Assembly (NCBI GenBank): GCA_003154115.1
Contig: PMCF01000212.1
Span: 1,277 to 65,276 of the forward strand
DNA length: 64,000 nt
Origin: Anaerolineae bacterium
GTDB lineage: Bacteria; Chloroflexota; Anaerolineae; Fen-1058
Direction of reading: 5' to 3'
The notes beneath the pieces were generated by a model, which made no database searches, was not told the DNA's origin, and saw only the letters and a program-made list of their open reading frames with translations. This document shows, one piece after another, positions 20,515-61,187 of the stretch (positions within the stretch are counted from its first letter, which is position 1; every line of letters starts with the position of its first letter). A program made the position numbers and the translations under genes.

Positions 20515-21383
20515 GCGTATCAGTCGCCGGATGGGGCGAAGGGAATTTCAGCGTGAGCGAGTTACCAGCCGTAAGTGTTACGCCTTTCAAGATTGCCATC
20601 GGCAGCCAGAAGGGCGGCGTGTCGAAGACGACGACGACGCTGTCGTTGGGCGCGTGCCTGGCCGAAAGCAACGGCACGCCAGCGCGCCACGTCTTGCTGA
20701 TCGATCTTGATCCGCAGGCCAATCTCACCCTGGCGCTGGGCGTGAATCCTGGCACGCTGCGCCGCATGATCGGCGACGCGTTGTTGGAGCAAACCTCGCT
20801 GCTCGCCATCAGCCGGGAAAGCGCGATTCCCAACCTTGATCTGGTTCCGGCGAATCAGGGCCTGTTGGTGTTGGACAAAGTCCTGTTTGGCCGTCCGGGG
20901 TTTGAATATCGGCTCAAGCAGCAGCTCGGCGGTCCGATCGCGCAGCACTATGACATCGCCCTATTCGACTGTCCGCCCGCCTTCGGCACGTTGACGATGA
21001 ATGCCCTGACGGCCGCTGACTTGTTGGTGATTCCCGTGCCCTGCGATTATTTTTCGGCCCGCTCATTGCCACAGTTCCTGGAGCTGGTGACCCTGGTCCA
21101 GCACAATACCAACCCGGCGCTGCGCTATCGCATTTTGATCACCATGTACGACAAGCGCAATCGCATCAGCCATATTATCCAGGATCAGCTGCGCCGCAAA
21201 TACGGCCACGCCATGCTGAACACCATCATCTCGATCGATACCAAACTGCGAGAAAGCCCGGTGGTCGGCCAGCCGATTACGCAGTATGCGCCAAACTCAC
21301 GGAGTGCGCAGGAATATCAGGCACTCGCCACGGAGTTGATGCAAGATGAGCAAACGCGAACGACATCTCAAGCAGCGGCTTGA
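20499..21383 (+). CDS. orphan ParA/MinD-family P-loop ATPase
   Basis: Deviant Walker A GSQKGGVSKTTTT, then LLIDLDPQANLT and Walker B YDIALFDCPP. The GTG start at 20499 overlaps the upstream gene by 16 nt, and GTG 20553 is also possible. The 3' end overlaps the next gene by 38 nt. No ParB-like gene is present. Confidence 0.8.
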   Translation: MAYALGVSVAGWGEGNFSVSELPAVSVTPFKIAIGSQKGGVSKTTTTLSLGACLAESNGTPARHVLLIDLDPQANLTLALGVNPGTLRRMIGDALLEQTSLLAISRESAIPNLDLVPANQGLLVLDKVLFGRPGFEYRLKQQLGGPIAQHYDIALFDCPPAFGTLTMNALTAADLLVIPVPCDYFSARSLPQFLELVTLVQHNTNPALRYRILITMYDKRNRISHIIQDQLRRKYGHAMLNTIISIDTKLRESPVVGQPITQYAPNSRSAQEYQALATELMQDEQTRTTSQAAA

Positions 21384-24300
21384 CGAACTCTTTTCGACGG
21401 CCGAGGAATCTGAAGCGGTGGCGGCTGGCGCATCAGCCGCGTCAGCCGTTCAGTCGCCCACCCCGATCGAGCCGGCAACCCGTCCCCCGCAGGGTGATCT
21501 GGTACGCCTGCTCACGGTTATTGAGCAGCTGCCCCTGCCCGCCTACCTCAAAGATCACGAGCACACCTGGGTTGCCGTCAACGCGGCTTACGGCGAGCTG
21601 ATCGGTCATGCACCGGCCAAGCTCATCGGCCACACCGACAAAGAACAAGCCGACGAAGCCTGGCAGCTGGACGATCGGGTGTTAGACACCGGCCAGCCCG
21701 AAGAGACCCAGGAGACCACCACCCTATCCGATGGATCGATCCGCACCCGACGCATCAAGCGCACTGCGCTATTCAACGATCAGCACGAGGTGCAATATGT
21801 GCTGGGGTTGGTGCAAGAGCAAGATGTGGCGCCGCACCAACGCGTCGAAGAAGATTTGTCGAAATTCAAATTGGGCATTGATCGGACCAACGCCGCGGTG
21901 ACGATTACCGATGCACGGGGCACCATTGTGTATGTTAATCCGGCCCATGAAAAAATCTACGGCTACTCACGTGAAGAAGTTATCGGGCAAAATCCGCGCC
22001 TCTTGAAGTCAGGACGTGTTTCGCCCGAACAGTATCAGCGTTTTTGGGCACGGCTGCTCGCCGGCGAGCCAGTGACGGGCGAGATTATCAATAAGGCCAA
22101 AGATGGGCGGCTGGTTCCGGTTGAAACGAACAACACGCCCATTCTGGACGCGAATGGAAAAATCACCGGCTTCCTCTCGATTCAATATGACATCAGCGAG
22201 CGCAAGCAGGCTGAAGCCGATTTGCGCAAATTCAAGTTGGGGCTGGATCGGTCATCCGCGGCAATCTTCATCACTACGCGCGAGGGCGAGATTACTTACG
22301 TGAATCCCGCCTTTGAGAAGACCTATGGTTATCTGCCAGAAGAGGCGATTGGCCGGACGCCGCGCATCTTGAAATCGGGCGTGATTCCGCAGGAGCAATA
22401 CACGCACTTCTGGCAAACGCTGCTGGCGGGCCAGACGGTGGCGGGCGAGATCATTAACAGAACCAAAGACGGGCGGCTGATCCCGATTGAAGGCAGTAAC
22501 AGCCCCATTCTGGACGACGACGGCAACATCATCGGCTTTCTGTCCATACACACCGACATCACGGAACGCAAGCAGGCCGAGGCCGAGCGCGAACAACTCC
22601 TGAAGAGTGAAGCGAAACGCGCTGTGCAACTGCAAACCGCCGCCGAGATCTCCAGCGCGGCCAGTACCGTGCTCGACGTGGATGAGCTGCTGCCCTTTGT
22701 GGTGAATCTCATTCAACAACGGTTTAGCCTGTACTACGTAGGCTTGTTTTTCGTCAACGCGACTTACCAGTCGGCGGTGCTGCGCGCCGCCACAGGTGAA
22801 GCCGGGCGCAACATGCTGGAACACGGTCATCAGTTACCCATTGACGACCGGTCAATGATTGGCTGGTGCATCGGCCATGAGACGGCCCGCATTGCTTCGG
22901 ATGTGGGTGAGGATGCCGTCCGCTTTAGCAACCCCGATCTACCCGAAACCCATTCAGAGCTGGCCCTGCCGCTCATCTCGCGTGGTCAAGTCCTCGGAGC
23001 GATGAGTGTACAAAGCGCTGAGGTCGCCGCCTTCAGCCCGCAAGATATTTCCGTGCTGCAGACCATGGCCAACCAGGTCGCCACCGCCATTGCCAATGCG
23101 CAATTATTGGAACAGTCCCGCGCGGCAAGTCGGCAGGCCGAAGCCCGCCTGCGCGAGACACAATTCTTGCAGCGTGTGGGCCAGGCTTCTTCAGCTTACC
23201 TGGATCCGGAGCGCGTCTATGATGTGGCGTTTGACGCGCTGGAAAACGAAATGAACTTCACCCACATCGCTTTGAATATTTTCAACGAGAAAGAAGACCG
23301 CGCGGTGGTCATTCGGGCTTCAGGCACGGCCAAGGAGCAGCAGGGACTTGATCGGCGTATGTCGGCCCTGCAAAACGACATCATTATGATCGTAGCGCGC
23401 CACGGCAAGATCGAAGTCATCGACGGGTGGGACGACCGTTTCGATCGGGACATCTATGAGGCGTATGGCCATGCGACTTTGGTGCGCGCCTTTGTGCCGC
23501 TGCGGCTGCGCGGCCAAAGCATCGGCCTGCTGGAAGCGGGTTATCAGCACGCCGAGCGCCCTCTGCTCACCGCCAACGAAGTGCGTTTGCTGGGCAGCCT
23601 GGCCGACTTGATTGCCGTCGCCGTCAGCAATGCCCGGCTCTTTGAAGAGACGCAGCGCCGCATCACCGAACTGGCCGTCGTCAACGAAATCAGCCGCACC
23701 CTGACCTCAACCCAAGACGTCAATCAGCTCTTCGTGACGATCCATCAACAAGTCGGGCGACTCTTTGAAGCATCCAACTTCTATATTGCCACCTATGACG
23801 GCGGCGATGAATGGTCGCTTGATTATCAATTTGAGCGTGATCAACTCTTGCCGCCGGCTAAACACAAGCTGGGGCGCGGTTTTACCAGCTACATCTTGCA
23901 GACCAGGCAACCGCTCTTGATCCGCTCTGCCCAAGAGAACACTGCCTTCCACGAGAAGCATGATCTGCCCAAGATTGGTGAAACCGCAAAATCCTGGATG
24001 GGGGTGCCCCTGATTGTAACGGGCAACATCACCGGCGTGATGGGGATTCAGAGCTACGAGCGTGAAGGACTCTACGACGAGCACAATGTCGCCCTGTTTT
24101 CGACAATCGGCACCCAGGCGGCCACGGCCATTCAAAACACGCGGCTGCTACAAGAGGCGCGCCTTCGGGCCAATGAGTTAGCCGCCTTGAACGAGTTGAG
24201 CCGGACACTCGCTTCGCAATTAAGTGTTAATCAAGTCTTGGAAGAAGTGTGGCAGGGCGTGTCACACCTGCTGGATACGACTAACTTTTATATCGCGCTC

Positions 24301-24900
24301 TACGATCCCGAGCGCCAAGAAATCTCGTTCCCCGTCAATGCTTCTGAATCCGTGCTGGACAAAGAGATCACCGTCATGCCAGCCAGTCAAGGCTTGACAG
24401 GCTATATTATCCGCACCGGGCAGCCTTTGCTCATCAAAGAAGATGTCCAAAGCACGGTCGACCGGCTGGGACTAGAAAATGTCGGCGCGAGATCACAATC
24501 TTATCTAGGTGTGCCGATTGCGGTTGGAGATCAGATCCTTGGCGCGGTCGCCCTTCAAAGCTATACCAAGGCCCGCGTGTATAACGAACACGATCAAGAT
24601 CTACTCATGGCGATTGCGGGTCAAACGGCGATTGCTCTGCAAAACGCGCGCCTGTTCGAGCAGATTCAGCGCACTGCCAAGCGCGAACAAACCCTGCGCG
24701 AACTGGCCGCACAAGTCCGCAGCTCAAGCGATCCCGACACGATCGTGCGCACGGCGGTGCGGGAATTGGGCATGGCTTTGGGTCGGCAGACTTTCATTCG
24801 TTTGGGGGATGCCGCGCAGCTGATCAAACCACCTGCGCCACCCAAGGCGGTCCCGGTGTCCGACAACGGGTCTGGCCCTGGATCGGAAGGAGGCCAGTAA
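21346..24900 (+). CDS. array member A: 3xPAS + 4xGAF protein, no recognisable output domain
   Basis: 1184 aa. Two tandem FKLG[IL]DR-type PAS domains, one signature GAF (LRAATGEAG, RFSNPDLPETHSELALPL), a DGWDDRFDR GAF and two further GAFs. It ends with the conserved C-terminal cap (ARLFEQIQRTAKREQTLRELAAQVRSSSDPDTIVRTAVRELG). Confidence 0.85.
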   Translation: MSKRERHLKQRLDELFSTAEESEAVAAGASAASAVQSPTPIEPATRPPQGDLVRLLTVIEQLPLPAYLKDHEHTWVAVNAAYGELIGHAPAKLIGHTDKEQADEAWQLDDRVLDTGQPEETQETTTLSDGSIRTRRIKRTALFNDQHEVQYVLGLVQEQDVAPHQRVEEDLSKFKLGIDRTNAAVTITDARGTIVYVNPAHEKIYGYSREEVIGQNPRLLKSGRVSPEQYQRFWARLLAGEPVTGEIINKAKDGRLVPVETNNTPILDANGKITGFLSIQYDISERKQAEADLRKFKLGLDRSSAAIFITTREGEITYVNPAFEKTYGYLPEEAIGRTPRILKSGVIPQEQYTHFWQTLLAGQTVAGEIINRTKDGRLIPIEGSNSPILDDDGNIIGFLSIHTDITERKQAEAEREQLLKSEAKRAVQLQTAAEISSAASTVLDVDELLPFVVNLIQQRFSLYYVGLFFVNATYQSAVLRAATGEAGRNMLEHGHQLPIDDRSMIGWCIGHETARIASDVGEDAVRFSNPDLPETHSELALPLISRGQVLGAMSVQSAEVAAFSPQDISVLQTMANQVATAIANAQLLEQSRAASRQAEARLRETQFLQRVGQASSAYLDPERVYDVAFDALENEMNFTHIALNIFNEKEDRAVVIRASGTAKEQQGLDRRMSALQNDIIMIVARHGKIEVIDGWDDRFDRDIYEAYGHATLVRAFVPLRLRGQSIGLLEAGYQHAERPLLTANEVRLLGSLADLIAVAVSNARLFEETQRRITELAVVNEISRTLTSTQDVNQLFVTIHQQVGRLFEASNFYIATYDGGDEWSLDYQFERDQLLPPAKHKLGRGFTSYILQTRQPLLIRSAQENTAFHEKHDLPKIGETAKSWMGVPLIVTGNITGVMGIQSYEREGLYDEHNVALFSTIGTQAATAIQNTRLLQEARLRANELAALNELSRTLASQLSVNQVLEEVWQGVSHLLDTTNFYIALYDPERQEISFPVNASESVLDKEITVMPASQGLTGYIIRTGQPLLIKEDVQSTVDRLGLENVGARSQSYLGVPIAVGDQILGAVALQSYTKARVYNEHDQDLLMAIAGQTAIALQNARLFEQIQRTAKREQTLRELAAQVRSSSDPDTIVRTAVRELGMALGRQTFIRLGDAAQLIKPPAPPKAVPVSDNGSGPGSEGGQ

Positions 24901-24901
24901 G

Positions 24902-27900
24902 ATGTATCCACAACTCGCCGCACAAATCCGAAAGCAACTTCCTGCGTTCGTCGATCAATATGATGCGCAGCTGCGCCATGTCCCCGGCTACGCCGGCGTA
25001 CCAGAGCCTGCGCGCCGTGACCTGGAACAGCAGGTACTCCAGATTATGGCCGACTGCCTTGAGGGCGGCGACGATAGCGCGTTGATTCAATACATTCACG
25101 AACGTGCCGAGCAGGTACTGGCCCGCGGCTTTCAACCCGAATGGTTTCAACAAGCCGTGACTCTGGCCGAAGAGATCATCACGCCGCTGATCAAGAAAGT
25201 GGATGAAGGCAACTTCGTATGGCGCGCCATGAATCACGCGCAGACTACCGCCTGGCAAATCGTCGCCCGCGAACGCACGCAAGTGGAAGAAGCGTTACGC
25301 CACAGCACCGAACAGCAACAGCACACCGCCCGGCAATTACGCGCTGCCCTCGAAGCGACCAACGAACTCATCCAGGTGCAAGACCTCGACACACTCTATC
25401 GCCGCACGGTGGAATTGGTCCGTGAGAAATTTGGCATAGAGCGGTGCGGGCTGTACTTGACTGATGAGTCCCATCAATACCTGCTGGGCACCTATGGAAC
25501 CGATGATCACCGGCATACGACGGACGAGCGCGGCGCCCAGCGCACTACCGCCGAATTTGAAGTCATTCTGACCACCAGCCCAGAGCAGCTATGGGTGGTG
25601 CGTGAAACGCCCCACGTTTTCTTCGAAAACGGTGTCGAGCATACCCTGGGGGCGGGCTGGGTGGTTGGCACCGTTCTGCGCGGCGCGGCCGGGCCGATCG
25701 GCATTCTGTTCAACGACAACGCCCTCAGCGGCCAACCGGTCGACGAAGCGCAACAAGAAGCGCTGGCGGTTTATTGTTCTGCGGTCGGTTCGATCATTGA
25801 GCGCAAGCGGACAGAGCAAGAACTGAAAAGCAATTTTCAGATGCAGCAGTTACTGAGTACACTGCTCACGATCTCACTGGAGAACCTTCCTCTGCTGGAG
25901 CAACTCGAACGTGCTTTGGACACCATCACGACATCGCCCTTCCTGCCGATCAAGCCCCAGAGTGGAATCTTTTTGGTCGAGCAGAACAATGTGTTGACGC
26001 TCAAAGTGAGCCATAACCTGGCCCCGCAACTGCTATCCTTGTGTGCCCTGGTGCCGTTCGGCCGCTGCTTGTGCGGCCGGGCCGCCGCAACGGGGCAGAT
26101 CCAATTCGCAGATTGCGTGGATGAGCGCCACGAAAATCAATTTGAAGGGATGCGTCCGCATGGGCACTATAACGTTCCCATCCTATCCCAAGGCAAACTG
26201 CTGGGCGTGATGGTACTCTATGTGCAAGAGGGCCATCGCCCGGAGAAACGCGAAGAAGAATATCTGCGTGCAGTCGCCAATACCCTGGCCGGCATAATCG
26301 AGCGCAAGCAGTTGGAGCAGCGCATTCGAGAATCGCTGGAGCGGCGTAGTCGTCAGGTACAGACCTCCACCGAGGTCGCGCAAGAGATCGCTTCTGCCAC
26401 CGATCTGAAGGAACTATTCCAGCGCGTGGTAACGCTGATCAAAGAACGCTTCGACTACTACCACGCGCAGCTCTTCCGCTACGAACCCGCCCAGGGCGCC
26501 GTAGTCTTGATCACGGGCTACGGCGAGATCGGCCAGAAGATGCTGGCGTCCGGGCACAAGTTACCCATGGGCCGAGGCGTGGCGGGCACCGCCGCAGCCA
26601 CGGGCGAATCGATTTTGGTCGCCGATGTCCACCAAGATAAAGATTGGCAGCCCAATCCCAACCTGCCCGAGACGCGTGGCGAGCTCGCCGTCCCGATCAA
26701 GCTGCGCGATCAAGTGCTGGGCATTCTCGACGTGCAAAGCGATCGAGCCGGGGCTTTGACTGATGACGATCGTTTACTACTGGAGGGCCTCTGCGGTCAA
26801 ATCGCCGTGGCGCTGGAAAGCACGCGCCTGCTGGAAGAATTGCGTCGCGGTGAAGCCCAGTTGTCTGAGGCGTTGAAGATCGCCAAACTCGCTTACTGGG
26901 AATACGACGTTGAAAAAGACTTGTTCCTCTTCAACGATCAATTCTACGCCCTCTTTCACACGACGGCGGAGCAGGAAGGCGGCTATCAGCTCTCGTCGGC
27001 GCAGTATGCCGGGAAGTTCGTCTATCCTGACGATCTGCCCGTCGTGGGCGTCGAGATCGAACGTGCGCTCAATTCCACCGATCGGCATTACAGCCGCGAT
27101 CTCGTCCATCGCATTCAGTACGCCGACGGCGGCGTCGGTTACATCTCCGTCAGCATCAATATCGACCGCGACGAGCAGGGTCGCATCCTGCGCTACTACG
27201 GCGCCAATCAGGACATCACCGAAAGCAGGTTAGCCGAACAGACGATCAAAGAAGAACAGCAGCGCACGCAGACCATCCTGGAGACGGTCACGGTGCCCAT
27301 GATCATCTCGCGCCTATCCGATAGCAAGATTTTATATGCGAACCAGGCGTTGGCCCAGTTCCGCCACCTGGCCGTGGAGGAGATGATTGGCAGCCGCACG
27401 GCGGACTATTTCGTCAATCCCGACGACCGGCGCAAGATCGTCGAGGCGCTCCAACAGCAAGGCTATGTCATCGATTTTGAAACCCAACTCTTGGGCAGTG
27501 ACGGGGCGCCATCCTGGGTGTTGCTCTCGGCCCGAATCGTCAAGTATCAGAACGACACCTCCGTCCTAACGACCTACATCGATATCACCGATCGCAAGCT
27601 GGCCGAAGAGGTGTTGCGCCGCAGTGAAGCCCAATTGTCCGAGGCGTTGAAGATCGCCAAACTCGCCTACTGGGAATACGACGTCGAAAAGGATCTGTTC
27701 CTCTTCAACGAGCAGTTCTACTCGATCTTCCATACCACCGTCGAACAAGAAGGTGGCTATCAGCTCTCGTCGGCGCAGTATGCCGGGAAGTTCGTCTATC
27801 CTGACGATCTGCCCGTGGTCGGCAGTGAAATCGAGCGGGCGCTCAACTCCACCGATCAGCACTACAGCCGCGATCTCGTCCATCGCATTCAGTACGCCGA

Positions 27901-29884: not shown

Positions 29885-29885
29885 C

Positions 29886-32800: not shown

Positions 32801-32978
32801 CCGCATCACCAGTCGCATCCGCAACGCCCGCTCGGTCGACGAAGTGCTGACGGTCGCCACGCAAGAACTGCGGTTGGCGACACAGGCGTCACGCAGCATC
32901 GCGGAAATCGCGCCCATGTCCACTCGCACATTGGCCTCCAATGAGCAGCCGCACAGCGGCAATGGTCACACCCCGTAA
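29886..32978 (+). CDS. array member C: RsbRD_N-like N-domain + 2xPAS + GAF + cassette-1 GAF + PAS + half-GAF, no recognisable output domain
   Basis: ORF 29841..32978 trimmed to GTG 29886, which lies 1 nt after the stop of B and is preceded by GAAGGAGG. The N-terminus aligns with those of B and I. It ends with the C-terminal cap (ARLFEQTQRDAERESKINRITSRIRNARSVDEVLTVATQEL). Confidence 0.85.
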   Translation: MSTVAATIQDQFDVLLDEYDRRLQKHPAYAAMPALFRREAARRTLGFTADWLHSGNDAQLIQFIQSTAQQRATQGLDIKIMQHAVNELESILEPLITDVETAKLIWHTLSKAQDAITQQATERLIAEGNRLRQMVDRSPVGIYHTTPEGRVIDANEAFLKIVGYASLDAINQVGVPALYENPADRQRLIAMLQQGPVTNFETRFRRADGQIVNISISVRLVQEAGVVSYLEGILEDITERKRIEQRLNESEERYRRLSDATVEGIVIHDKGILLDANEVFAKMFGYKLSEVIGMAATEFLTPETREITAQNIRSGYEKPYEVMGLRKDGSTFLVEITGNAIPYEGRTVRVTALRDITERQRSREQIERILQETRVRFEVSQALAGQKTEDEVLASLIQQARIYPQALVTTATFDKTGDDIVAVARYAESFESGLTLNLPMGTRFPFSQFPLFRLLSADRPFVSQDTFADDRMDAASIEITRETGAAGFAVFPLTADNEWLGFMMVFARSIGFFDEGKEHLYQTLVEQGAKALQTARLRDQIQTSLERRGRQVQLSTEVAQEIAAAPKLEELFQRVVTLIKERFGYYHAQIFRYDPAQDAVVLVTGYGEAGQKMLAAGHKLAMGRGVVGTAAAASRSILASDVAQDKNWLPNRNLPDTKGELAAPIKLRDQVLGILDVQSSQTGALTADDQLLLEGLCGQIAIAIEHRRAEDRLAEERNLMRTLMDALPDYIYAKDLAGRFILTNAALARLMGAAAPEDLIGKSDWDFYPRELAEQYFASEQTIFHEGQVLLNHEEPNVDALGHQKWNTTTKVPLRNSQGQIIGLVGATRDITERKQAETKMQETLHELERLYRATAREGWQAYREAAQTTPGYLFDRFSLTPQASWRAPIEQGIQQNTLVLSTGEQAVTVTPLAVRGEVIGAVGVYDDPNRPLSPDELALLQEIAEQGALALESARLFEQTQRDAERESKINRITSRIRNARSVDEVLTVATQELRLATQASRSIAEIAPMSTRTLASNEQPHSGNGHTP

Positions 32979-32994
32979 GGAGGGAAGGATAACT

Positions 32995-35727: not shown

Positions 35728-35737
35728 GGAGTAAAAC

Positions 35738-36231: not shown

Positions 36232-36343
36232 GGTGATCGATGTGTTGCTGTTCCAGGACCAACCGCCAGCAGGTGGAGAGAAATCGGGACAGGGACAAAC
36301 TGAGCTCTCTGTGCACAGCCTCGGGATGAGGTAAGAGGAACGT

Positions 36344-41177: not shown

Positions 41178-41285
41178 AGGGCGGCATTCGTGGTGAGGTC
41201 GGCCCTAGTGGCGATTTAGGCCCAGGGTTTCTTAACTGTGGTGAGTTTGAAGACGAAAAAGCCGCACTAGTAGGTGGAGGCAGTT

Positions 41286-48024: not shown

Positions 48025-48025
48025 T

Positions 48026-54151: not shown

Positions 54152-56963
54152 CTCAATCGATCAGAAACCCAATTGGTTCAGACGTTTTATCATGCCACCG
54201 GTTTACGCGGATGCCGACCAGGCGCGCGCCGCTCGCCTGCTGCACACCGTCTTGCTTGTGATGTGGGCCATCTTGATCCTGACTTTGGCGGCCACACCCC
54301 TCATTGGCGAAGCTTTAACGGTGATCTTACCCGTGCTGGGAGGCGTGGCGATCTTTCAAGTCGTCATCACGTACTTGAACCGCCATGGACAAGTACGATT
54401 GGCGAGCGGAATCTACATCGTTTTTCTATGGCTGCCTACCGCCGCCGCAACAGCATTTTTAGGCGGGTTGTCCAATCCCACGGCCAACCTTATGCTGTTG
54501 CCAATCATTATTGGCAGTCTGTTACTAGGGGTGAGGGGCATTGCCTTCACCAGTGTTATCACCTTAATCTCGACGACTCTGATACTCATCGCCAGCCAGG
54601 CAGGCATTCTGCCCCCTTCACCGCTCGAGCCGACACCCATTCAATACTGGATCGATATCGTCATAGGCGTCATGCTGGCGAGCGGGCTGCTGGTCCTGGC
54701 TGCCAACAACATCCAGGATGCCCTGAACGTAGCCCGCCGCAATGCTGCCGCGCAGGCGCAAAGCAACCGCGAGCTCACCGCGATTCGCGCTTCCTTGGAG
54801 GAGCGTATCACCGAACGCACCGATCAGTTGAGTGTCAGCGCCGAAGTGGCCCGCGCCATTTCATCAATTCTTGATCCGGACGAACTGCTCCGGCGCGTCA
54901 CGCTGCTGATCGTCGAGCGCTTCAATCTCTACTATGCCGCCGCCTTCCTGGTGGACGACGACGCAGAATTCGCCGTGATGCAAGAAGCGACGGGCGAAGC
55001 CGGGCGGGTGCTCAAAGAACGGGGGCATAAGCTCGAGATCACCGGGCCATCGATGGTCGGCCTGGCCATCGCCACGCGCCGGCCCCGCATCGTGCAAGAC
55101 GTCGACAAAGAAACCATGCGCTTTGCCAATCCGTTGTTAACCGAAACCCAATCGGAAGTAGCGCTGCCTTTGATTATTGGCGACCAAGCGATTGGCGCCT
55201 TGGACGTTCAATCCACCCGCGCGGCCGCCTTCGACGAGAGTACCGTCCTCTTACTGCAGGGCTTAGCCGACCAGATCGCCATTTCCATCAACAATGCGCG
55301 ACAGTATCAACAAGCGCAGTTAGACGCACGACAAGCCGGTTTGTTGTTTGAGGCGAGCCAGGCCGCCGGCTTCATGGGGCAAGGGTTGGACTTCACAGTC
55401 AATCGGCTATTCGGCGTGGTGGCACAGCGCTCCGACTTTGACAACTGGATGATAGCGACCTATAACCACGACAGTCAAGCCTACACCGTAGTTCAAGCAT
55501 TTGACGCTAACGAACCAGCGCCACCCGAAGAGGTCGGCCAGGTGATCTCGCTGGACCGGGAGCAAGACACACCCACGGCCTTAGTGATTCGCTCCAACCG
55601 GATGATCGTGATCAATGATCCGCTTGGCGATCCGTTGCTGGCGCACATGTCCGAGAAAATGCGAGAAACGATCGGCAAACTGATCGCGGCGCCGATCCTA
55701 CTGGGCGACCACCTGCTGGGCGTGATCACGCTGGGCCGCACGGTGGACAAGCCCAACATCGGGCCACGCGACATTCAGTTGACGCAGGCGCTGGCCAGCC
55801 AGATGGCGGTCGCCATCGAGAACGGCCGCTTGCTGGAACAGTCGCAGAAGTCGATGGAAGAAATGAACCGGCTGATGCGGCTGTATATGCACGAAGGCTG
55901 GTCGAATTTCAGCCAGAGCCGCGGCACCGATCGGCTGCGACAAGAATACACGCGGCCTGACACCCCGGCGCTTAACCCGGAGGTGCTGGCCCAGATCGAC
56001 GAGGCCGTTAACCAGGCGACGACGACCGGCGAAGTGAAGCCAATTAGCTTCGATGGGCAATCGGTGGTCAGTGTGCCGATCGAGCTGCGCGGCGAGGTCT
56101 TCGGCGCGCTCACCATACAAGACGCCACCGATCGACAGTGGACGGAAGATGAGTTGGCGACGCTGCAAGCCGTGGCCGCGCAGGTGGCCCAGTCGTTGGA
56201 ATCCGCCCGCTTGTTGCAAGAAAGCGAAGTCAGCCTGCAAGAGACCATGGGCCTGTATCAAGCCAGCCGCAGCATCGCCGCCGCGCAAACACCGGCCGAA
56301 GTGCTGCAGTCGATCAACGATAGCATCATCACCCCGGGGATTGATCGGATCGTTCTGGCGCTGATCATCCCCGATAGTCCTAAAGACAATCTAACGACCG
56401 AAGTAGCGGCGGCCTGGGAACGTGGCGTGGAAACACCCACCGTCATTGGCAATCGCTGGACCGCAGCACAGATTCCGTTAATCGGGCCGCAGCTGGTCGA
56501 ACCGCTCGTCGCCAACGATGTGGCCACGGCGTCCAACCTTGACCCAGTCTCGCGTCACATCTTTGCCAATGTCATCAAAGTCAAGTCGATGGCTATCTTG
56601 CCGATGCAGGCCGGCAGTGAACTGTTAGGCTGGCTGATGGTCGAGACGTTGCACCGGCCGTACAACTTTGGCGAAACAGAAATCCGGCGCTACCGCACGC
56701 TGGCCGGACAAGCAGCTGTGGCTCTGGAAAACCATCGCCTCTTCCAAGAAACACAACAGCGTGCTCAACGTGAGCAGCTGACCCGCGAGATTGGTACGAC
56801 GATCGGCAAATCCCTTGACCTGGACACGGTGCTCAAGACCACGGCACGTGAGATCAGCCACGCCCTGGGCGCAACTCATGTTGTGATTCGTGCAGGTACC
56901 CTGAGAACTCAGGATACCTCGGCGAGTGAAGCGTCGAGTGCCAATCGTCCAGTCACTTCGTAA
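54144..56963 (+). CDS. array member J: polytopic membrane N-domain + signature GAF + GAF + half-GAF + GAF, no recognisable output domain
   Basis: The ATG overlaps the stop of I (ATGACTAG). It has ~6 TM helices and no HAMP. Signature GAF (MQEATGEAG, RFANPLLTETQSEVALPL). C-terminal cap (HRLFQETQQRAQREQLTREIGTTIGKSLDLDTVLKTTAREI). Confidence 0.85.
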   Translation: MTSSIDQKPNWFRRFIMPPVYADADQARAARLLHTVLLVMWAILILTLAATPLIGEALTVILPVLGGVAIFQVVITYLNRHGQVRLASGIYIVFLWLPTAAATAFLGGLSNPTANLMLLPIIIGSLLLGVRGIAFTSVITLISTTLILIASQAGILPPSPLEPTPIQYWIDIVIGVMLASGLLVLAANNIQDALNVARRNAAAQAQSNRELTAIRASLEERITERTDQLSVSAEVARAISSILDPDELLRRVTLLIVERFNLYYAAAFLVDDDAEFAVMQEATGEAGRVLKERGHKLEITGPSMVGLAIATRRPRIVQDVDKETMRFANPLLTETQSEVALPLIIGDQAIGALDVQSTRAAAFDESTVLLLQGLADQIAISINNARQYQQAQLDARQAGLLFEASQAAGFMGQGLDFTVNRLFGVVAQRSDFDNWMIATYNHDSQAYTVVQAFDANEPAPPEEVGQVISLDREQDTPTALVIRSNRMIVINDPLGDPLLAHMSEKMRETIGKLIAAPILLGDHLLGVITLGRTVDKPNIGPRDIQLTQALASQMAVAIENGRLLEQSQKSMEEMNRLMRLYMHEGWSNFSQSRGTDRLRQEYTRPDTPALNPEVLAQIDEAVNQATTTGEVKPISFDGQSVVSVPIELRGEVFGALTIQDATDRQWTEDELATLQAVAAQVAQSLESARLLQESEVSLQETMGLYQASRSIAAAQTPAEVLQSINDSIITPGIDRIVLALIIPDSPKDNLTTEVAAAWERGVETPTVIGNRWTAAQIPLIGPQLVEPLVANDVATASNLDPVSRHIFANVIKVKSMAILPMQAGSELLGWLMVETLHRPYNFGETEIRRYRTLAGQAAVALENHRLFQETQQRAQREQLTREIGTTIGKSLDLDTVLKTTAREISHALGATHVVIRAGTLRTQDTSASEASSANRPVTS

Positions 56964-56990
56964 CAGTAAACATCATGGAAAGGAACCCAC

Positions 56991-57794
56991 ATGTCACAAG
57001 AAAACATTGCGAACAGCGCCAAACCCAACCCGGGACGAATGTATGACTATCTGTTAGGTGGCCATCACAATTTCGAAGTTGATCGTGTGGCGGCTGAACA
57101 ATTAAAGGCCCTGGCGCCTTTTGCCGCGAAGGCGCCCAAACTGCAACGCTGGTGTCTGCAAGACCTGGCAGTGGAATTAACGGAGAAGCGCGGTTACGAC
57201 ATCATCATCGACTTCGCTTCGGGTTTACCGACACAAGATCATATTCACGAAGCCGTGCCGGATGGCACAACCGTCATCTACTCGGATTATGATCCGGTAA
57301 CGGTCGAGTATGCGTGCGAAATCTTGCAAGGGACACCCAACGTCTATTTCTTCCAGGGCGATGCACGCCACCCTGAGGCATTGCTCAATCGGCCTGAAGT
57401 GCAAGACATCCTTAAGGATCGCCGCGACGTGGCTTTGGTCTACTGGGGAGTCACTGCGTTTTTCACCGACGCCGAGCTCGTCTCGGTTGCTCAGTATTTG
57501 CACCAGTGGGCCGATCCGAAGAGTTGTTGGGCCTTTAACGCGCAATTGGCCGATGTCGGCTTGACAGACCCGGGCGTCGTGCGCGCGACCAAATTGTATG
57601 AGCAAATGGGTTCACCGCTGCGGCTGCGCACCCTGGAAGAATATCAAACGCTGACGCAGCCGTGGCGGCCGGACGAGAAAGGGTTTATTCCCTTTATGGA
57701 CTGGCACGGGATCGATCGCAGTGAAATGGGCGAAGAAGACCTACGCGCCTTTGGGGTAGCCGGCGGCGGATACGGCGCTTACCTGACCAAATAG
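56991..57794 (+). CDS. SAM-dependent methyltransferase of the PF04672 (DUF574 / Methyltransf_19) type
   Basis: N-terminal GRMYDYLLGGHHNFEVDRVAAEQL and IIDFASGLPTQDHIHE...VIYSDYDPV match my memory of this family's signature. No search was run. Confidence 0.7.
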   Translation: MSQENIANSAKPNPGRMYDYLLGGHHNFEVDRVAAEQLKALAPFAAKAPKLQRWCLQDLAVELTEKRGYDIIIDFASGLPTQDHIHEAVPDGTTVIYSDYDPVTVEYACEILQGTPNVYFFQGDARHPEALLNRPEVQDILKDRRDVALVYWGVTAFFTDAELVSVAQYLHQWADPKSCWAFNAQLADVGLTDPGVVRATKLYEQMGSPLRLRTLEEYQTLTQPWRPDEKGFIPFMDWHGIDRSEMGEEDLRAFGVAGGGYGAYLTK

Positions 57795-57833
57795 CAAACG
57801 GCCAAGCACGACAGCAGCAGGAGGAGTATCGCG

Positions 57834-60800
57834 GTGAACACGATTGATCTCCAATCATCCCAACCAACTAACGCGCAGCTGGCCACCGCCTTTAATCAGG
57901 CTGACTTACAGCAGCGCTTTGCCGGCGTCTTGCGCCAGCATCTTTTTACCAATCGTACCGAGGTCCGGCCTGCTACGGTCAAGCGCCTGGCTGCCCAGGA
58001 AGCCGACACGATCATTAAATTCATCCAGGATCCCGATCGCGGCCGGGCGCAGCAACACGGCGTGCAATTGTGCGACGCCGGCCTCAGCGAACAATCGGTG
58101 CTCAGCCTGGGACAAGCCGCTCGGCAGTATTGCGCCATCACCCTGCCCGATGAGCTGCGCGTGCCAGCTTTAGAGATCCTTGAATCTTTCTACAACGCAT
58201 CCATGCAAGGGTTCTTTGAAGCGCATACGGCGCTGATGCTCAAAGAGCAAGAGCGCATGCGGACGGCCTTAGAGAAATCGCTGAACCGCTATACCATGGA
58301 AATGGGCCTGGCCGCGGAAGTGGCCAAAGTCGCCGCCTCCACGCTCAACCTGGATGAGCTCCTGCGCATCACGGTCGATACGATCTTGACCCGGTACAGC
58401 TTCTACTATGTCGGCATCTTCCTGGCGGACGAGCATCATGAATGGGCCATCTTGCGCGCTGGAACAGGCCCGGCCGGAGAAGAGATGCTGCGCCGCGGTC
58501 ATAAATTCCAAATCAACGATCACTCTTCGATGGTTGGCTGGTGTATGTTTGTGCGCCAGCCGCGGATCGCTCAGGACATTGGTCAGGACACCGTGCGCTT
58601 TGTCAATCCCTTCCTGCCCGACACCCGTTCTGAAATGGCTTTACCCCTTATCACGCAAGGGAACGCCATCGGCGCGCTGACCATTCAAAGTCGAAAAATG
58701 GCGGCCTTCTCCGAGCAGGATATTATGGTTCTGCAGATCGTGGCCGATCAAGTGGCCACGGCGATTGAGAATGCCAAGCTCTTCGCCCGTGCGCAAGCCA
58801 GTCTCACGGAGGCTGAATCGGCACAGCGCGGCTATGTTCAAAAAGCTTGGGCAGAAAACACCGAGACTGAAGGGTTCGCTTACCTGTACGAACAGAGTTC
58901 AGACTCGGCCACCGCTCTTCGCATTTCACAACCAATCCAGGACTTAGCTAATCAGCCACCGTTGTCCATTCCGATTGTTTTACGCGGTGAAACGATCGGT
59001 GTGATCGAGATTTACGATCATTCCGTGCCCCGCACGTGGACACCAGACGAAATCGCGCTGGCTCAAACCATTGCCGGGCAGTCAGCTTTGTCGCTGGAAA
59101 ACGCCCGTCTTTACCAGGAGACTCAGCATCGCATCAACGAGCTGGTGGTGCTAACCCGCATCGTCCGCCGCTTAGCCTCGACCCTGGACTTGGACGAAAT
59201 CCTGTCCTCCGTGATCGAAGAATCGTTCAATGCCACCAAGGCCACGCAGGGTGGAATTTTCCTGTACAACGAGCGCGAAAACGCCCTGGAAATGCGGGTC
59301 ATGCGCGGCTTTGGGGCAGAGATGGAAGGCCGCTATGCCGGCTACATCATTCGGACGGGCGAGGGCTTGATTGGCCGCGTGTTGAACACCGGCGAATCAC
59401 TGCTCATTAATGATGTCACGCGCGAATCCGACTATCAAATGATCGATGCCCGCACGCGCGCCGAATTGATCATGCCGATCCGGCAAGGCAATTTGCTATT
59501 GGGCGTCCTCAACCTGGAAAGCTCGCAGTTGAATGCGTTCAGCGAATCGGACCAGCGCTTGCTGGAAGCCATGGCCGACCAGGCCGCCGTCGCCATCACC
59601 AATGCCCACGCCTACGAAGCCGAACGACAAGCCGTGGAGCGCATGCGTGAAGTCGATCGCTTGAAGACGCAATTCCTGGCAAACATGAGCCATGAGCTGC
59701 GCACGCCGCTCAACTCGATCATCGGCTTCAGCCGCGTGATGCTGCGCGGCATTGACGGCCCGCTGAGCGAGATGCAATCCACCGACCTCACGTCGATTTA
59801 CAACTCCGGTCAGCACTTGCTGGGCCTGATCAACAACATACTCGATCTATCCAAGATCGAAGCCGGCAAGATGGAACTCTCGATCGAGTCGGTGAACCTG
59901 AACGATGTCGCCAAGACCGTCATGTCTACGGCCATCGCGCTGGTGAAAGACAAGGCGGTCAAATTGGAGCAGGATGTGCCGCCCGATCTGCCCACCGTCA
60001 TGGCCGATCAAACCCGCGTGCGGCAGATTATTCTCAACCTGGTGTCCAACGCCGCCAAGTTCACCGAGAAAGGCTTCGTTCGCCTGCGGATGGTCTCCAC
60101 GCCGAAAGAAGTGTTGATCTCGGTTACGGACAGCGGCATCGGCATCCCGTCCGATAAGTTGGAGCACGTCTTCGAGGAATTCACGCAGGTCGATGCCAGC
60201 ACCACGCGCAAGTACGGCGGCACGGGCCTGGGCCTGGCGATTTCACGCAAGTTCGTCGACATGCACAAGGGCCGCATCTGGGTCGAATCCGAAATGGGCG
60301 TCGGCTCCACGTTCACCTTCACGCTGCCGCGCGAACAGGCCGAGCCGGAACCTCCCGTGTCACGGCCCACCGATCTGGAAGCGCGCGGCGAAGGCAAGAA
60401 GCTGATCATGTGCATCGACGATGATCCCGGTGTGATTACGCTGTACAAGCGCTATCTGGAGAAACAGGACTATCGAGTGATCGGCGTCACGGATCCCACC
60501 AAGGCGGTGGAAGAAGCGCGACGCGTACTGCCCTACGCCATTACCCTGGACGTGATGATGCCGCGTAAGGACGGCTGGGACGTGCTGGCCGATCTCAAGA
60601 AGACGCCGGAGATCAGCAACACGCCCATCCTGGTGTGCAGCATCGTGCAGGATAAGACCCGCGGCTTCTCACTGGGCGCCGCCGATTATTTGGTCAAGCC
60701 CATCACGGAAGACGAGCTGCGCCGGGCGCTGGCGCGAATTAGCCGTGACAAGACCATCAACAAAATCCTGGTCGTGGACGATGAACCATCGGCTTTGCAG

Positions 60801-61187
60801 CTGCTCAAGCGCATCCTTGAATCCCAACCGCAGTACAAAGTGCTGGATGCGACCGGCGGCGCGCAGGCGTTGATGATCATACAGAACGAAAAACCCGATC
60901 TCGTCCTCTTGGATCTGATGATGCCCGAGGTGGACGGCTTCGCCGTGCTGGACAACATCAAGTCGAATTCCGACACGCACGACATCCCGGTGATTATCGT
61001 CACCGCCAAAGAGATCACCGCCGAGGATCGGGAGCGCTTGAATGGCAACATGACCGCTCTGTACAATAAGGGCATGTTCACCGCCGAACAACTGTTGGAC
61101 GACATCGGCCAGGCCCTGGCGACCATGAACACCGAAATGGCCCGCGAGGGTAAGAAGGTAGAAGTCTTCCACAAGACGCTGACCTAG
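57834..61187 (+). CDS. array member K: helical N-domain + signature GAF + half-GAF + GAF + HisKA + HATPase + 2 receivers (hybrid histidine kinase)
   Basis: GTG start after AGGAGGAG. Signature GAF variant (LRAGTGPAG, RFVNPFLPDTRSEMALPL). H-box FLANMSHELRTPLNSI. HATPase motifs (NLVSNAAKFT, DSGIGIP, GTGLGL). Receivers: LIMCIDDDP/ITLDVMMPRKDG and ILVVDDEPS/LVLLDLMMPEVDG. Confidence 0.9.
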   Translation: MNTIDLQSSQPTNAQLATAFNQADLQQRFAGVLRQHLFTNRTEVRPATVKRLAAQEADTIIKFIQDPDRGRAQQHGVQLCDAGLSEQSVLSLGQAARQYCAITLPDELRVPALEILESFYNASMQGFFEAHTALMLKEQERMRTALEKSLNRYTMEMGLAAEVAKVAASTLNLDELLRITVDTILTRYSFYYVGIFLADEHHEWAILRAGTGPAGEEMLRRGHKFQINDHSSMVGWCMFVRQPRIAQDIGQDTVRFVNPFLPDTRSEMALPLITQGNAIGALTIQSRKMAAFSEQDIMVLQIVADQVATAIENAKLFARAQASLTEAESAQRGYVQKAWAENTETEGFAYLYEQSSDSATALRISQPIQDLANQPPLSIPIVLRGETIGVIEIYDHSVPRTWTPDEIALAQTIAGQSALSLENARLYQETQHRINELVVLTRIVRRLASTLDLDEILSSVIEESFNATKATQGGIFLYNERENALEMRVMRGFGAEMEGRYAGYIIRTGEGLIGRVLNTGESLLINDVTRESDYQMIDARTRAELIMPIRQGNLLLGVLNLESSQLNAFSESDQRLLEAMADQAAVAITNAHAYEAERQAVERMREVDRLKTQFLANMSHELRTPLNSIIGFSRVMLRGIDGPLSEMQSTDLTSIYNSGQHLLGLINNILDLSKIEAGKMELSIESVNLNDVAKTVMSTAIALVKDKAVKLEQDVPPDLPTVMADQTRVRQIILNLVSNAAKFTEKGFVRLRMVSTPKEVLISVTDSGIGIPSDKLEHVFEEFTQVDASTTRKYGGTGLGLAISRKFVDMHKGRIWVESEMGVGSTFTFTLPREQAEPEPPVSRPTDLEARGEGKKLIMCIDDDPGVITLYKRYLEKQDYRVIGVTDPTKAVEEARRVLPYAITLDVMMPRKDGWDVLADLKKTPEISNTPILVCSIVQDKTRGFSLGAADYLVKPITEDELRRALARISRDKTINKILVVDDEPSALQLLKRILESQPQYKVLDATGGAQALMIIQNEKPDLVLLDLMMPEVDGFAVLDNIKSNSDTHDIPVIIVTAKEITAEDRERLNGNMTALYNKGMFTAEQLLDDIGQALATMNTEMAREGKKVEVFHKTLT

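What the first reader, a model, noticed from the sequence alone, without database searches (positions are those of the whole stretch)
21346..61187. Ten consecutive giant sensor proteins without output domains, followed by one paralogous hybrid kinase
Genes A-J (21346..56963; 730-2041 aa each, about 11,600 aa in total) consist only of input modules and roughly thirty GAF or half-GAF modules by my reading. B, C and I have an RsbRD_N-like helical domain plus PAS arrays. D has a helical periplasmic sensor plus HAMP. E, G and H have Cache-type sensors plus HAMP. F, G, H and J have polytopic membrane domains. I found no HisKA/HATPase, GGDEF, EAL, HD-GYP, cyclase, STAS, phosphatase or HTH motif in any of the ten. 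They are clearly one family, sharing GAF cassettes, the RRLTGEAW segment and a C-terminal cap. The eleventh gene K (57834..61187) has the same cassettes but continues into HisKA-HATPase-REC-REC. The cluster also encodes a ParA-like ATPase, stand-alone CheY-like receivers and a methyltransferase. That parts list parallels chemosensory arrays (many receptors, one kinase, CheY, CheR, a ParA-like positioning factor), but it is built from GAF proteins rather than MCPs, CheA or CheW. My hypothesis is a hetero-oligomeric many-inputs-to-one-kinase integrator. I cannot judge from the sequence alone whether this has been described.
Basis: partly seen in the sequence, partly recalled or inferred. Interest (0 to 1): 0.9.

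Follow-up and report, generated by a model that had tools for sequence, protein, structure and literature searches.

The report
Kinase-less GAF receptor array, Anaerolineae
Ten neighbouring genes encode large sensor proteins that have no signalling output of their own and sit beside one related kinase, an arrangement that recurs in at least 40 of the related Chloroflexota species checked and that I could not find described in the literature searched.

Summary
Genes A-J (21346-56963) contain only TM, dCache, HAMP, PAS, GAF and globin-like modules. No output domain is detectable.

All ten end in the same 'cap'. It is the first ~45 residues (alpha1-alpha2-beta1) of a further GAF, followed by a short disordered tail. 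K (57834-61187) has the same cassettes and continues into HisKA-HATPase-REC-REC.

This is not a one-off:
- Cap-terminated, kinase-less giant GAF proteins form a large Chloroflexota family, annotated only as 'GAF domain-containing protein'.
- In 78 Anaerolineae/Thermoflexia species genomes, a K-type kinase lies directly upstream of a conserved ThrC-like PLP enzyme fused to a receiver (58 of 59 testable loci).
- Cap-terminated sensors lie upstream in 40 of 44 loci.
- A ParA-type ATPase is present in 26 of 44.
- The PF04672 methyltransferase is present in only 2 of 44.

In a close relative, J and K are one protein, joined exactly at the alpha5/cap junction. A second recombinant there carries an F body with I's cap.

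The most likely reading is that the sensors are kinase-less paralogues that modulate K in trans, with the ThrC-like-REC protein as output. That mechanism is inferred, not shown. The chemosensory-array analogy is only partly supported. I found no prior description.

The parts
18770..19555 (+). Receiver protein (REC plus a ~130-aa C-terminal domain with no family hit) at the head of the co-directional block.
   Evidence: Pfam Response_reg 9e-20. Sequence shown.
19657..20055 (+). Stand-alone CheY-like receiver 1.
   Evidence: ORF and sequence. It is 53% identical to the REC of the REC-HK gene. DNA repeat D19 links the two.
20059..20514 (+). Stand-alone CheY-like receiver 2.
   Evidence: ORF and sequence. 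REC comparison.
20499..21383 (+). ParA/MinD-type ATPase. Its stop overlaps the start of A.
   Evidence: Pfam AAA_31 1e-43 and CbiA. Deviant Walker A KGGVSKTT. Orthologues at 209-302 bits in 31 related loci.
21346..24900 (+). Sensor A. Cytoplasmic: PAS x3, GAF x4, cap (cap DNA 24640-24813).
24902..29884 (+). Sensor B. Globin-like N-domain, GAFs, PAS array, RRLTGEAW-type half-GAF, GAF, cap (cap DNA 29645-29818).
29841..32978 (+). Sensor C. Globin-like N-domain, PAS x2, GAF x2, PAS, half-GAF, cap (cap DNA 32742-32915).
32941..35727 (+). Sensor D. TM, ~290-aa periplasmic domain, TM, HAMP, GAF, half-GAFs, cap (cap DNA 35503-35676).
35738..36205 (+). Short ORF matching only the C-terminal third of an ABC-type substrate-binding protein. 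Probably a remnant.
   Evidence: Pfam ABC_sub_bind, profile positions 182-276 of 293. A full-length 343-aa copy sits in the same array in L008.
36344..39001 (+). Sensor E. TM, dCache, TM, HAMP, GAF x2, half-GAF, cap (cap DNA 38756-38950).
38967..41177 (+). Sensor F. Polytopic membrane domain (5 TM), GAF, half-GAFs, cap (cap DNA 40959-41132).
41274..44636 (+). Sensor G. Polytopic TM, dCache, TM, HAMP, GAF x2, half-GAF, cap (cap DNA 44430-44603).
44620..48024 (+). Sensor H. Polytopic TM, dCache, TM, HAMP, GAF x2, half-GAF, cap (cap DNA 47761-47934).
48023..54151 (+). Sensor I (2041 aa; the ORF is open from 47909). Globin-like N-domain, PAS x8, GAF x4, half-GAF, cap (cap DNA 53888-54061).
54144..56963 (+). 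Sensor J. Polytopic TM, GAF x4-5, cap (cap DNA 56727-56900). It is fused to the K core in relative L011.
56991..57794 (+). PF04672 SAM-dependent methyltransferase. An accessory gene, not conserved in the cluster.
   Evidence: Pfam Methyltransf_19 1.5e-36. Present in only 2 of 44 related loci.
57834..61187 (+). Hybrid kinase K. Globin-like N-domain, GAF, RRLTGEAW half-GAF, GAF, HisKA, HATPase, REC, REC.
   Evidence: The conserved core across genomes is residues ~377-1095.
61219..62874 (+). ThrC-like PLP enzyme (N-terminal Zn ribbon, SFKDR lysine) fused to a C-terminal receiver. Candidate output response regulator.
62891..64000 (+). REC-HisKA-HATPase kinase (423 aa), cut by the window end.
   Evidence: The same gene follows PALP-REC in many related loci.

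Best explanation
**What it is.** This is the local, expanded version of a signalling locus found in at least 40 of 44 sampled species of Anaerolineae and Thermoflexia.

**Parts shown here.**
- A variable array of mostly membrane-bound receptors. Each has an input module, a rod of GAF domains joined by long helices, and a conserved helical cap. None has a transmitter.
- A ParA/MinD-type ATPase and CheY-like receivers.
- A paralogous GAF hybrid histidine kinase (K).
- Directly after K, a threonine-synthase-like PLP enzyme fused to a receiver, followed by a REC-HK.

**How it probably works (inferred).** The cap-terminated proteins are kinase-less paralogues of K. Each senses a different cue and modulates K in trans. 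They would do this by associating with K through the shared GAF/coiled-coil/cap module, or by their GAFs contacting K's DHp/CA domains. K's autophosphorylation would then reflect many inputs. K passes phosphate to the ThrC-like-REC protein and possibly to the REC-HK. The primary output would therefore be an enzyme activity rather than transcription. The ParA-type ATPase would organise or position the assembly.

**How the array evolves (shown).** Unequal recombination at the conserved alpha5/cap junction adds sensors, deletes them, or fuses them to the kinase.
For: **Shown.**
- A-J have input and GAF modules only, and all end in the cap.
- K has the same cassettes plus a canonical transmitter.
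- The genes are tightly packed or overlapping on one strand.
- AF2 (pLDDT 90) models the tail as GAF, a 54-residue helix, a reduced GAF, then alpha5 running on into the cap helical hairpin.
- Of the 150 best-scoring representative proteins matching the tail profile, 50 lack a kinase core and end in a cap-like segment; a few of these are cut by contig ends. 8,523 representatives match at E<=1e-30, a count that also includes kinases with tandem GAFs.
- Synteny in 78 species genomes: kinase directly upstream of PALP-REC in 58 of 59, cap-terminated sensors in 40 of 44, ParA in 26 of 44. The same holds in contexts reached from the sensor side.
- Sensors elsewhere are mostly transmembrane receptors. 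Some form full-length orthologue groups across 4-5 species.
- In L011, one ORF equals J (52%) up to ALENRRLFQ and then K 379-1115 (79%).
- A second recombinant has an F body with I's cap at 80-85% identity.
- K REC2 and the ThrC-REC receiver are each other's closest REC in the window (45% over 118 aa).

**Precedent.** GAF-only accessory proteins regulate co-encoded kinases: CvnF8 with CvnA8 (PMC13343842) and NreA with NreBC (PMC8199190).
Against: - No interaction between any sensor and K has been tested. Synteny and one fusion do not prove contact in trans.
- K orthologues carry their own diverse inputs.
- Other GAF kinases (U1, U2) and a REC-HK lie nearby, so K need not be the sole or even the actual target.
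- The cap is only ~28% identical among A-J, less than the 'signature' GAF at 49%.
- AF2 leaves the cap's beta1 as coil at pLDDT 65-80.
- K has no HPt domain, so the route to ThrC-REC is unclear.
- Four of 44 loci have K and PALP-REC with no sensors within 10 kb.
- ParA was not seen within 10 kb in 18 of 44 loci.
Confidence: 0.45

Rival explanations
1. The sensors act through the ParA/MinD-type ATPase rather than through K. They would recruit it or regulate its ATPase cycle, and so control localisation of some cargo or of the receptors themselves. K would be a parallel sensor kinase.
For: ParA orthologues are embedded in the arrays in 26 of 44 loci. Their start or stop codons often overlap a neighbouring GAF gene, as with A in the window. 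ParA-family ATPases are known to position chemoreceptor arrays (own knowledge: ParC, PpfA).
Against: ParA most often abuts K itself (23 of 44), not a sensor. It was not seen within 10 kb in 18 of 44 loci. No cargo or partner protein is evident. The J-K fusion links a sensor to the kinase, not to ParA.
Confidence: 0.15
2. The kinase-less proteins are negative regulators or decoys. They would form dead heterodimers with GAF kinases, or buffer a shared small ligand bound by the conserved 'signature' GAF. They would damp signalling rather than transmit it.
For: They are truncated paralogues of kinases that stop just after the last dimerisation helix. Every member carries one highly conserved fRMsr-like GAF (mean 49%, up to 78% identity), which could bind a common ligand.
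Against: Each has a different elaborate input (dCache, HAMP, polytopic TM, PAS arrays, globin-like domain). That is unnecessary for a decoy or a buffer. Full-length orthologues are kept across species.
Confidence: 0.15
3. The clustering is only a by-product of tandem duplication and recombination. Each output-less protein signals to an unlinked partner elsewhere in the genome, or is a stand-alone ligand-binding protein, and has no functional tie to K.
For: The repeated cassettes recombine readily. Most sensor orthogroups are lineage-specific (48 groups among 63 proteins). Output-less PAS/GAF proteins are common in genomes (own knowledge).
Against: The sensors-ParA-K-ThrC-REC order persists across species whose PALP-REC proteins are only 55-60% identical, spanning several orders. 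Overlapping stop and start codons suggest co-translation. There is also the J-K fusion.
Confidence: 0.15
4. The array is a reservoir of silent sensor cassettes or decaying gene fragments that are recombined onto the kinase gene. They would not be working proteins in their own right.
For: Two junction recombinants separate close relatives. There is one truncated gene (s1) inside the array.
Against: All ten are complete ORFs of 736-2041 aa with their own starts and N-terminal membrane or sensor domains. They are identical in independent assemblies. Orthologues at 52-63% identity are uninterrupted in L011, apart from one frameshift in a long-read contig. Paralogues are only 60-89% identical at DNA level, so there is no recent gene conversion.
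Confidence: 0.05

Closest known systems
GAF-only accessory sensors of histidine kinases (CvnF8-CvnA8 in Streptomyces, PMC13343842; NreA-NreBC in Staphylococcus, PMC8199190)
   Same: A protein made of GAF with no output domain is encoded next to a kinase and regulates it by direct contact. CvnF8 binds CvnA8 and stimulates its autophosphorylation.
   Different: Those are single small soluble GAF proteins (~26 kDa for CvnF8), one per kinase, and are not paralogues of the kinase. Here there are up to ten giant, mostly transmembrane, multi-domain receptors. They are paralogous to the kinase's own sensor region, share a conserved cap, and come with a ParA ATPase and a ThrC-like-REC protein.
Chemosensory arrays (MCPs, CheW, CheA, CheY, CheR/CheB, ParC/PpfA positioning ATPase)
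   Same: Many transmembrane receptors with diverse inputs, HAMP domains, a long cytoplasmic rod and a conserved membrane-distal helical hairpin. One kinase, CheY-like receivers and a ParA-family ATPase sit in the same cluster.
   Different: There is no MCP signalling domain, CheA or CheW. The rod is built from GAF domains. The methyltransferase is PF04672, not CheR, and is present in only 2 of 44 loci. The kinase is a HisKA-type hybrid kinase with its own sensor modules.
Stressosome (RsbR paralogues, RsbS, RsbT)
   Same: Several paralogous sensors, some with an N-terminal non-haem globin-like domain, share a conserved C-terminal module and together control one kinase.
   Different: There is no STAS domain and no RsbT-type kinase. 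Only B, C, I and K have the globin-like domain, and its best structural matches are photoglobin, phycobiliprotein and sensor globins at weak E-values.
Multikinase networks with kinase-kinase heteromers (RetS/GacS/LadS type; own knowledge)
   Same: Several sensor proteins converge on one transmitter through direct protein-protein contact between paralogous two-component proteins.
   Different: Those partners keep DHp/CA or receiver domains. A-J have none and end in a partial GAF.
Tandem-GAF sensor kinases, phytochrome GAF-PHY modules and cNMP-binding tandem GAFs (CyaB2, PDE2A)
   Same: GAF domains are strung on long connecting helices. Foldseek matches of the tail model are to these structures.
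   Different: Those continue into a catalytic output. The proteins here stop after alpha1-alpha2-beta1 of the next GAF.

Membership tests
GAF-domain sensor proteins (Pfam CL0161) | Significant match to GAF, GAF_2 or GAF_3 profiles, and a GAF fold. | tested here: met
   All of A-K score 1e-28 to 1e-63. The AF2 model of I 1720-2055 matches solved GAF structures (TM to target 0.7-0.8).
Two-component histidine kinases (applied to A-J) | HisKA/DHp with a phospho-acceptor His, plus an HATPase_c catalytic domain. | tested here: not met
   No HisKA or HATPase hit at E<0.01 in A-J. No unassigned C-terminal sequence is left. My own kinase-core HMM is also negative on cap-terminated homologues.
Hybrid histidine kinase (applied to K) | H-box, N/G1/G2 boxes, and a receiver with the conserved Asp. 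| tested here: met
   SHELRTPLNSI, DSGIGI and GGTGLGLAI motifs. Two REC domains carry DD...D...K. Best NCBIfam matches are BarA, HrmK and TorS, all below equivalog cut-offs.
Chemosensory array | MCPsignal domain in the receptors, plus CheA (Hpt-P2-dimerisation-HATPase-CheW) and CheW. | tested here: not met
   None of these Pfam families hit any ORF of 150 aa or more in the window.
Chemosensory array | CheR-type methyltransferase conserved with the receptors. | tested here: not met
   The methyltransferase is PF04672, not CheR. It occurs in 2 of 44 related loci.
Chemosensory array | Receptors and kinase form one physical lattice. | not testable with these tools
   This needs co-purification or cryo-ET. 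Only monomer structure prediction was available.
Stressosome | STAS domain in the sensors and an RsbT-type kinase. | tested here: not met
   No STAS or HATPase_c_2-type stand-alone kinase hits.
   No Pfam hit at E<=10 and no PDB sequence hit. AF2 (pLDDT 88, only 4 sequences) gives a six-helix domain. Its best Foldseek hits are photocobilin 8j2x, DosC globin, allophycocyanins and HemAT (E 0.013-0.15, TM 0.5-0.6).
ParA/MinD ATPases | Deviant Walker A KGGxxK[ST] and a ParA-family profile match. | tested here: met
   KGGVSKTT. AAA_31 1e-43 and CbiA 3e-16. All NCBIfam equivalogs (ParA_partition, BcsQ, MinD) fall below cut-off, so the subfamily is unassigned.
Threonine synthase (ThrC) | PLP-lysine motif and a score above the equivalog threshold. 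| tested here: inconclusive
   The SFKDR lysine is invariant. It is homologous to solved ThrC structures (2zsj, 1.7e-43). The best NCBIfam model, PRK08197, scores 257 bits against a cut-off of 303. It is a ThrC-family paralogue whose reaction is unknown.
GAF-only kinase accessory proteins (CvnF / NreA type) | Direct binding to the co-encoded kinase and modulation of its activity. | not testable with these tools
   Only indirect support is available: conserved synteny and the J-K fusion.

The most novel reading that the evidence does not exclude
The cap-terminated GAF receptors, K, the ParA-type ATPase and the ThrC-like-REC protein form a previously unrecognised receptor-array signalling machine of Anaerolineae. 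It would be a third 'many receptors, one kinase' architecture alongside chemosensory arrays and the stressosome. It would be built from GAF rods whose helical cap is the docking tip, positioned by a ParA ATPase, with a phosphorylation-controlled PLP enzyme as output.
Probability: 0.25. Interest if true: 0.9.

Novelty: new variant of a known kind. Interest (0 to 1): 0.7.

Why it matters
Anaerolineae are abundant in sludge, sediments and peat, but their signalling is essentially unstudied.

- **A large unexplained family.** Many giant proteins annotated only as 'GAF domain-containing' would gain a context if this locus is a functional unit.
- **A new way to pool inputs.** It would show how bacteria can pool many membrane receptors onto one two-component transmitter without MCP/CheA chemistry.
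- **A new output class.** A receiver-controlled ThrC-like PLP enzyme would be added to the known response-regulator outputs.
- **A built-in evolutionary mechanism.** The conserved alpha5/cap junction shows how sensor repertoires are expanded, lost or fused to a kinase by recombination.
- **An experimental handle.** The cluster is present in a cultured strain, Ornatilinea apprima P3M-1 (L052), so the proposal is testable.

Tried and rejected
- **Locus search with the tail alignment.** The search for related loci with the tail alignment failed because no stretch was conserved enough. I used the ThrC-like-REC protein as the marker instead.
- **RsbRD_N assignment.** Pfam at E<=10 and a PDB profile search of the N-terminal domains of B, C, I and K gave nothing. 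The assignment is rejected at sequence level and kept only as a globin-like fold.
- **Circularly permuted GAF.** I considered that the half-GAF plus cap folds as one circularly permuted GAF, with the cap's beta1 completing the sheet. AF2 models the cap as a helical hairpin with beta1 as coil at pLDDT 65-80, so this is unresolved.
- **A C-terminal docking motif.** I looked for an NWETF-like motif after the cap. Only a modest enrichment of 'NG' appears (26% against 11% in shuffles), and it is not universal.
- **Recent gene conversion among paralogues.** DNA repeats are 60-89% identical, so this is rejected.
- **A as the split-off N-terminal half of ParA-adjacent K orthologues.** The alignments are not collinear, so I dropped the claim.
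- **The 206-aa minus-strand ORF at 19885-20505.** It is spurious, lying antisense to the two CheY genes.
- **Literature.** Nine searches found no description of the cluster, the cap, or a ThrC-REC response regulator.
- **PF27275.** It is listed for one homologue but is absent from the local Pfam copy.

Full report
**1. Observation**

The window has ~58% G+C. Between 18.7 kb and its end it carries one almost uninterrupted co-directional block of genes.

The ten ORFs named A-J are at the stated coordinates. They are separated by overlaps of 2-44 nt or by gaps of at most 138 nt. Pfam at E<0.01 finds only PAS-clan, GAF-clan, HAMP and dCache families in them.

I mapped every GAF, PAS, HAMP, tail and cap segment with HMMs built from the window itself, and added hydrophobic runs for TM segments. 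After that, no stretch of 70 aa or more remains unassigned at any C-terminus. The only gaps are periplasmic (D 55-343, G 413-514, H 402-516) or internal to B. So A-J have no recognisable output domain.

K (57834-61187) has a canonical H-box, G-boxes and two receivers. Identical copies of I (2041 aa), J, the methyltransferase, K and the next gene occur in several independent assemblies. These include Stordalen Mire metagenomes and GCA_003154575.1, so the reading frames are real.

**2. The shared C-terminal module**

Aligning the C-termini shows two things.

- In C-I, and internally in B and K, the tail runs as follows: a coiled-coil segment ending in N-R-R-L-T-G-E-A-W, a variable stretch, then the C-terminal half of a GAF (PIxxRGxxIG ... 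ENARLxEQTQ).
- In all ten, ~45 residues follow that are homologous to the N-terminus of a GAF (alpha1-alpha2-beta1). After them comes a short hydrophilic tail and the stop codon.

In K the same 45 residues simply continue into a complete GAF and then HisKA.

AlphaFold2 on I 1720-2055, with a 110-sequence alignment, gives pLDDT 90. The model is a GAF, a 54-residue helix, a reduced GAF (alpha4, beta4-6, alpha5), then alpha5 running on as a 46-residue helix into the cap, which folds back as a hairpin. The cap's beta1 is coil at pLDDT 65-80. Foldseek finds only GAF, tandem-GAF and phytochrome GAF-PHY structures.

Among A-J the best-conserved module is not the cap (28% mean identity). It is one 'signature' GAF per protein (49% mean, up to 78%), of the fRMsr-like GAF_2 type with the motif NPLLPxTRSExAxPL..G..xGxLDVQS.

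The N-terminal helical domain of B, C and I is also present in K. It has no sequence match in Pfam or the PDB. It does model confidently as a six-helix, globin-like domain. The closest hits are photocobilin, DosC and HemAT globins, and allophycocyanins, all at weak E-values.

**3. A large family**

A profile of the tail matches 8,523 representative proteins at E<=1e-30. This count also includes kinases with tandem GAFs. The best 150 are 1,000-3,950 aa multi-GAF proteins.

Of those 150, 87 contain a kinase core. Fifty have none and end in the cap followed by a short tail, although a few of the fifty are cut by contig ends. Wherever a source gives a name, it is 'GAF domain-containing protein' or 'PAS domain S-box protein' from Chloroflexota, Anaerolineae, Thermoflexales or Promineifilaceae.

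**4. Conserved neighbourhood**

Contexts reached from tail fragments in other organisms show the same kind of array. They contain many HAMP-, dCache- or MASE11-GAF genes in a row, a ParA-like gene, a GAF-HisKA-HATPase-REC kinase, and then a PALP gene and a REC.

The gene after K (61219-62874) is a ThrC-family PLP enzyme. It has an N-terminal CxxC...CxxC ribbon, the SFKDR lysine and a C-terminal receiver. Its orthologues in the 80 best loci retrieved are 53-88% identical to it. Its best NCBIfam model is threonine synthase PRK08197, below the cut-off.

Using it as a marker, 590 matches were found in the species-level genome collection. The 80 best loci are all Anaerolineae or Thermoflexia apart from one oddly labelled MAG. 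They include the cultured Ornatilinea apprima P3M-1 and two closed MAG chromosomes.

I annotated these loci with my HMMs:

| Test | Result |
|---|---|
| GAF kinase immediately upstream of PALP-REC (loci with at least 3 kb upstream) | 58 of 59 |
| At least one kinase-less, cap-terminated GAF gene (loci with at least 8 kb upstream) | 40 of 44, typically 2-3 before the locus ends |
| ParA orthologue present | 26 of 44 |
| ParA directly abutting the kinase | 23 of 44 |
| PF04672 methyltransferase present | 2 of 44 |

A ~420-aa REC-HK often follows PALP-REC, as it does here (62891 onward).

The cap-terminated proteins elsewhere are mostly transmembrane. Thirty of 63 are polytopic and 14 have two TM segments plus HAMP. 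Some form full-length orthologue groups across 4-5 species, but most are lineage-specific. K orthologues share only the core (K ~377-1095) and have very different N-terminal inputs.

**5. Fusion and recombination at the junction**

L011 is a 653-kb long-read contig whose PALP-REC is 88% identical to the window's. There, the gene before PALP-REC is a single 1,574-aa ORF. It is J-like (52% identity over J 10-932) and K-like (79% over K 379-1115).

A three-way alignment shows that it follows J through '...RYRTLAGQAAVALENRRLFQ' and then switches to K's 'RVNELIILTRIGRRLASTLDLDEIL...'. J's cap is therefore positionally the start of K's last GAF. A sensor of this family can be joined in frame to the transmitter.

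The same relative, and two further relatives, carry an F-like gene whose body is 65-68% identical to F. Its cap is 80-85% identical to I's cap, and G, H and I are absent. The conserved ENARLxEQTQRxAxRE junction is thus a recombination point at which sensors are gained, lost or fused.

Within the window the paralogues are only 60-89% identical at DNA level, so there has been no recent conversion.

**6. Interpretation**

*Shown:*
- The domain anatomy of A-K.
- The cap.
- The size of the family.
- The conserved order sensors-(ParA)-K-ThrC-REC-(REC-HK).
- The junction recombinants.

*Inferred:* The sensors are kinase-less paralogues that regulate K in trans, and K signals to the ThrC-like-REC protein. 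K REC2 and that receiver are each other's closest REC in the window (45% over 118 aa). CheY1 similarly pairs with the REC of the REC-HK (53%).

Trans-regulation of a kinase by a GAF-only protein has experimental precedent. CvnF8 binds CvnA8 and stimulates its autophosphorylation (PMC13343842). NreA regulates NreBC (PMC8199190).

I give this reading 0.45. The rivals are signalling through ParA, a decoy or buffer role, unrelated partners, and a cassette reservoir. None is excluded, but each fits the data less well. Their evidence is set out under the rival explanations.

**7. Comparison with known systems**

The parts list resembles chemosensory arrays: many transmembrane receptors with HAMP and a rod ending in a conserved hairpin, one kinase, CheY-like proteins and a ParA ATPase. 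It also resembles the stressosome, with paralogous sensors, some with globin-like heads, controlling one kinase.

Membership of either fails on every defining domain. MCPsignal, CheA, CheW, CheR, STAS and RsbT are all absent. The system belongs to the two-component world, with accessory GAF sensors as the nearest tested analogue. It differs in scale, in membrane anchoring, in paralogy to the kinase, in the cap, and in its ParA and ThrC-REC partners.

Nine full-text searches found no description of it.

**8. Verdict**

Co-occurrence and a fusion support coupling to K. The methyltransferase/CheR analogy and the 'single kinase' claim are not supported. The ThrC-like-REC partner was missed.
- Novelty: a new variant of two-component signalling with accessory sensors. 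I put about one chance in four on it being a distinct receptor-array machine.
- Interest: 0.7.

Noticed in passing
window 61219-62874; L011-L090: A threonine-synthase-like PLP enzyme (Zn ribbon, SFKDR lysine) is fused to a C-terminal receiver. It is 53-88% identical to its orthologues in the 80 best loci retrieved, out of 590 matches in species genomes, nearly all Anaerolineae or Thermoflexia. It scores below the NCBIfam ThrC cut-offs. I found no literature on a response regulator with this output.
   Followed up: partly
window 35738-36205: A 155-aa ORF inside the array matches only profile positions 182-276 of 293 of ABC_sub_bind. A full 343-aa copy occupies the equivalent place in L008 (1819-2850). 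It is probably a decayed gene.
   Followed up: partly
C-termini of A-J; 99 cap-terminated proteins in L011-L090: The short hydrophilic tails after the cap (median 16 aa) are enriched in the dipeptide NG, often as GNG. It occurs in 26% of tails against 11% in shuffles (0 of 1000 shuffles reach the observed value), and in 5 of 10 tails in the window. The meaning is unknown.
   Followed up: partly
window 18770-19555: A receiver protein has a ~130-aa C-terminal domain that matches no Pfam or NCBIfam family.
   Followed up: no
window 19914-20033 and 63139-63258: A 120-nt direct repeat (75% identity) reflects 53% protein identity between stand-alone CheY1 and the receiver of the REC-HK gene at the other end of the cluster. 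The two may share a phosphodonor.
   Followed up: partly
window 26840-27139 and 27614-27913: A 300-nt internal repeat within gene B at 89% identity. It is the most recent duplication in the region.
   Followed up: no
window 11018-17685: Just upstream lie a REC-adenylate/guanylate cyclase (minus strand, 11018-12028) and two GAF histidine kinases: U1 (12158-14491, minus strand) and U2 (14533-17685, REC-PAS-GAF-HK). Both kinases carry the same signature GAF as A-K. An OmpR-type regulator is at 17600-18628.
   Followed up: partly
window 2910-10982: An ABC ATPase, a fused ABC-2 permease/ABC_transp_aux protein (973 aa), a DUF4340 protein, and on the minus strand a protein with three PA14 domains. 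These appear unrelated to the finding.
   Followed up: no
window 47909-48023: Gene I's ORF is open from 47909, but gene callers start it at 48023 (2041 aa). That start overlaps H's stop and coincides with the beginning of the globin-like domain.
   Followed up: yes
window 19885-20505 (minus strand) and 62924-63523 (minus strand): These long minus-strand ORFs are spurious. They lie antisense to the two CheY genes and to the REC-HK gene.
   Followed up: yes
P0037: One homologue carries a precomputed Pfam family, PF27275, that is absent from the local Pfam copy. I could not tell what it covers.
   Followed up: partly
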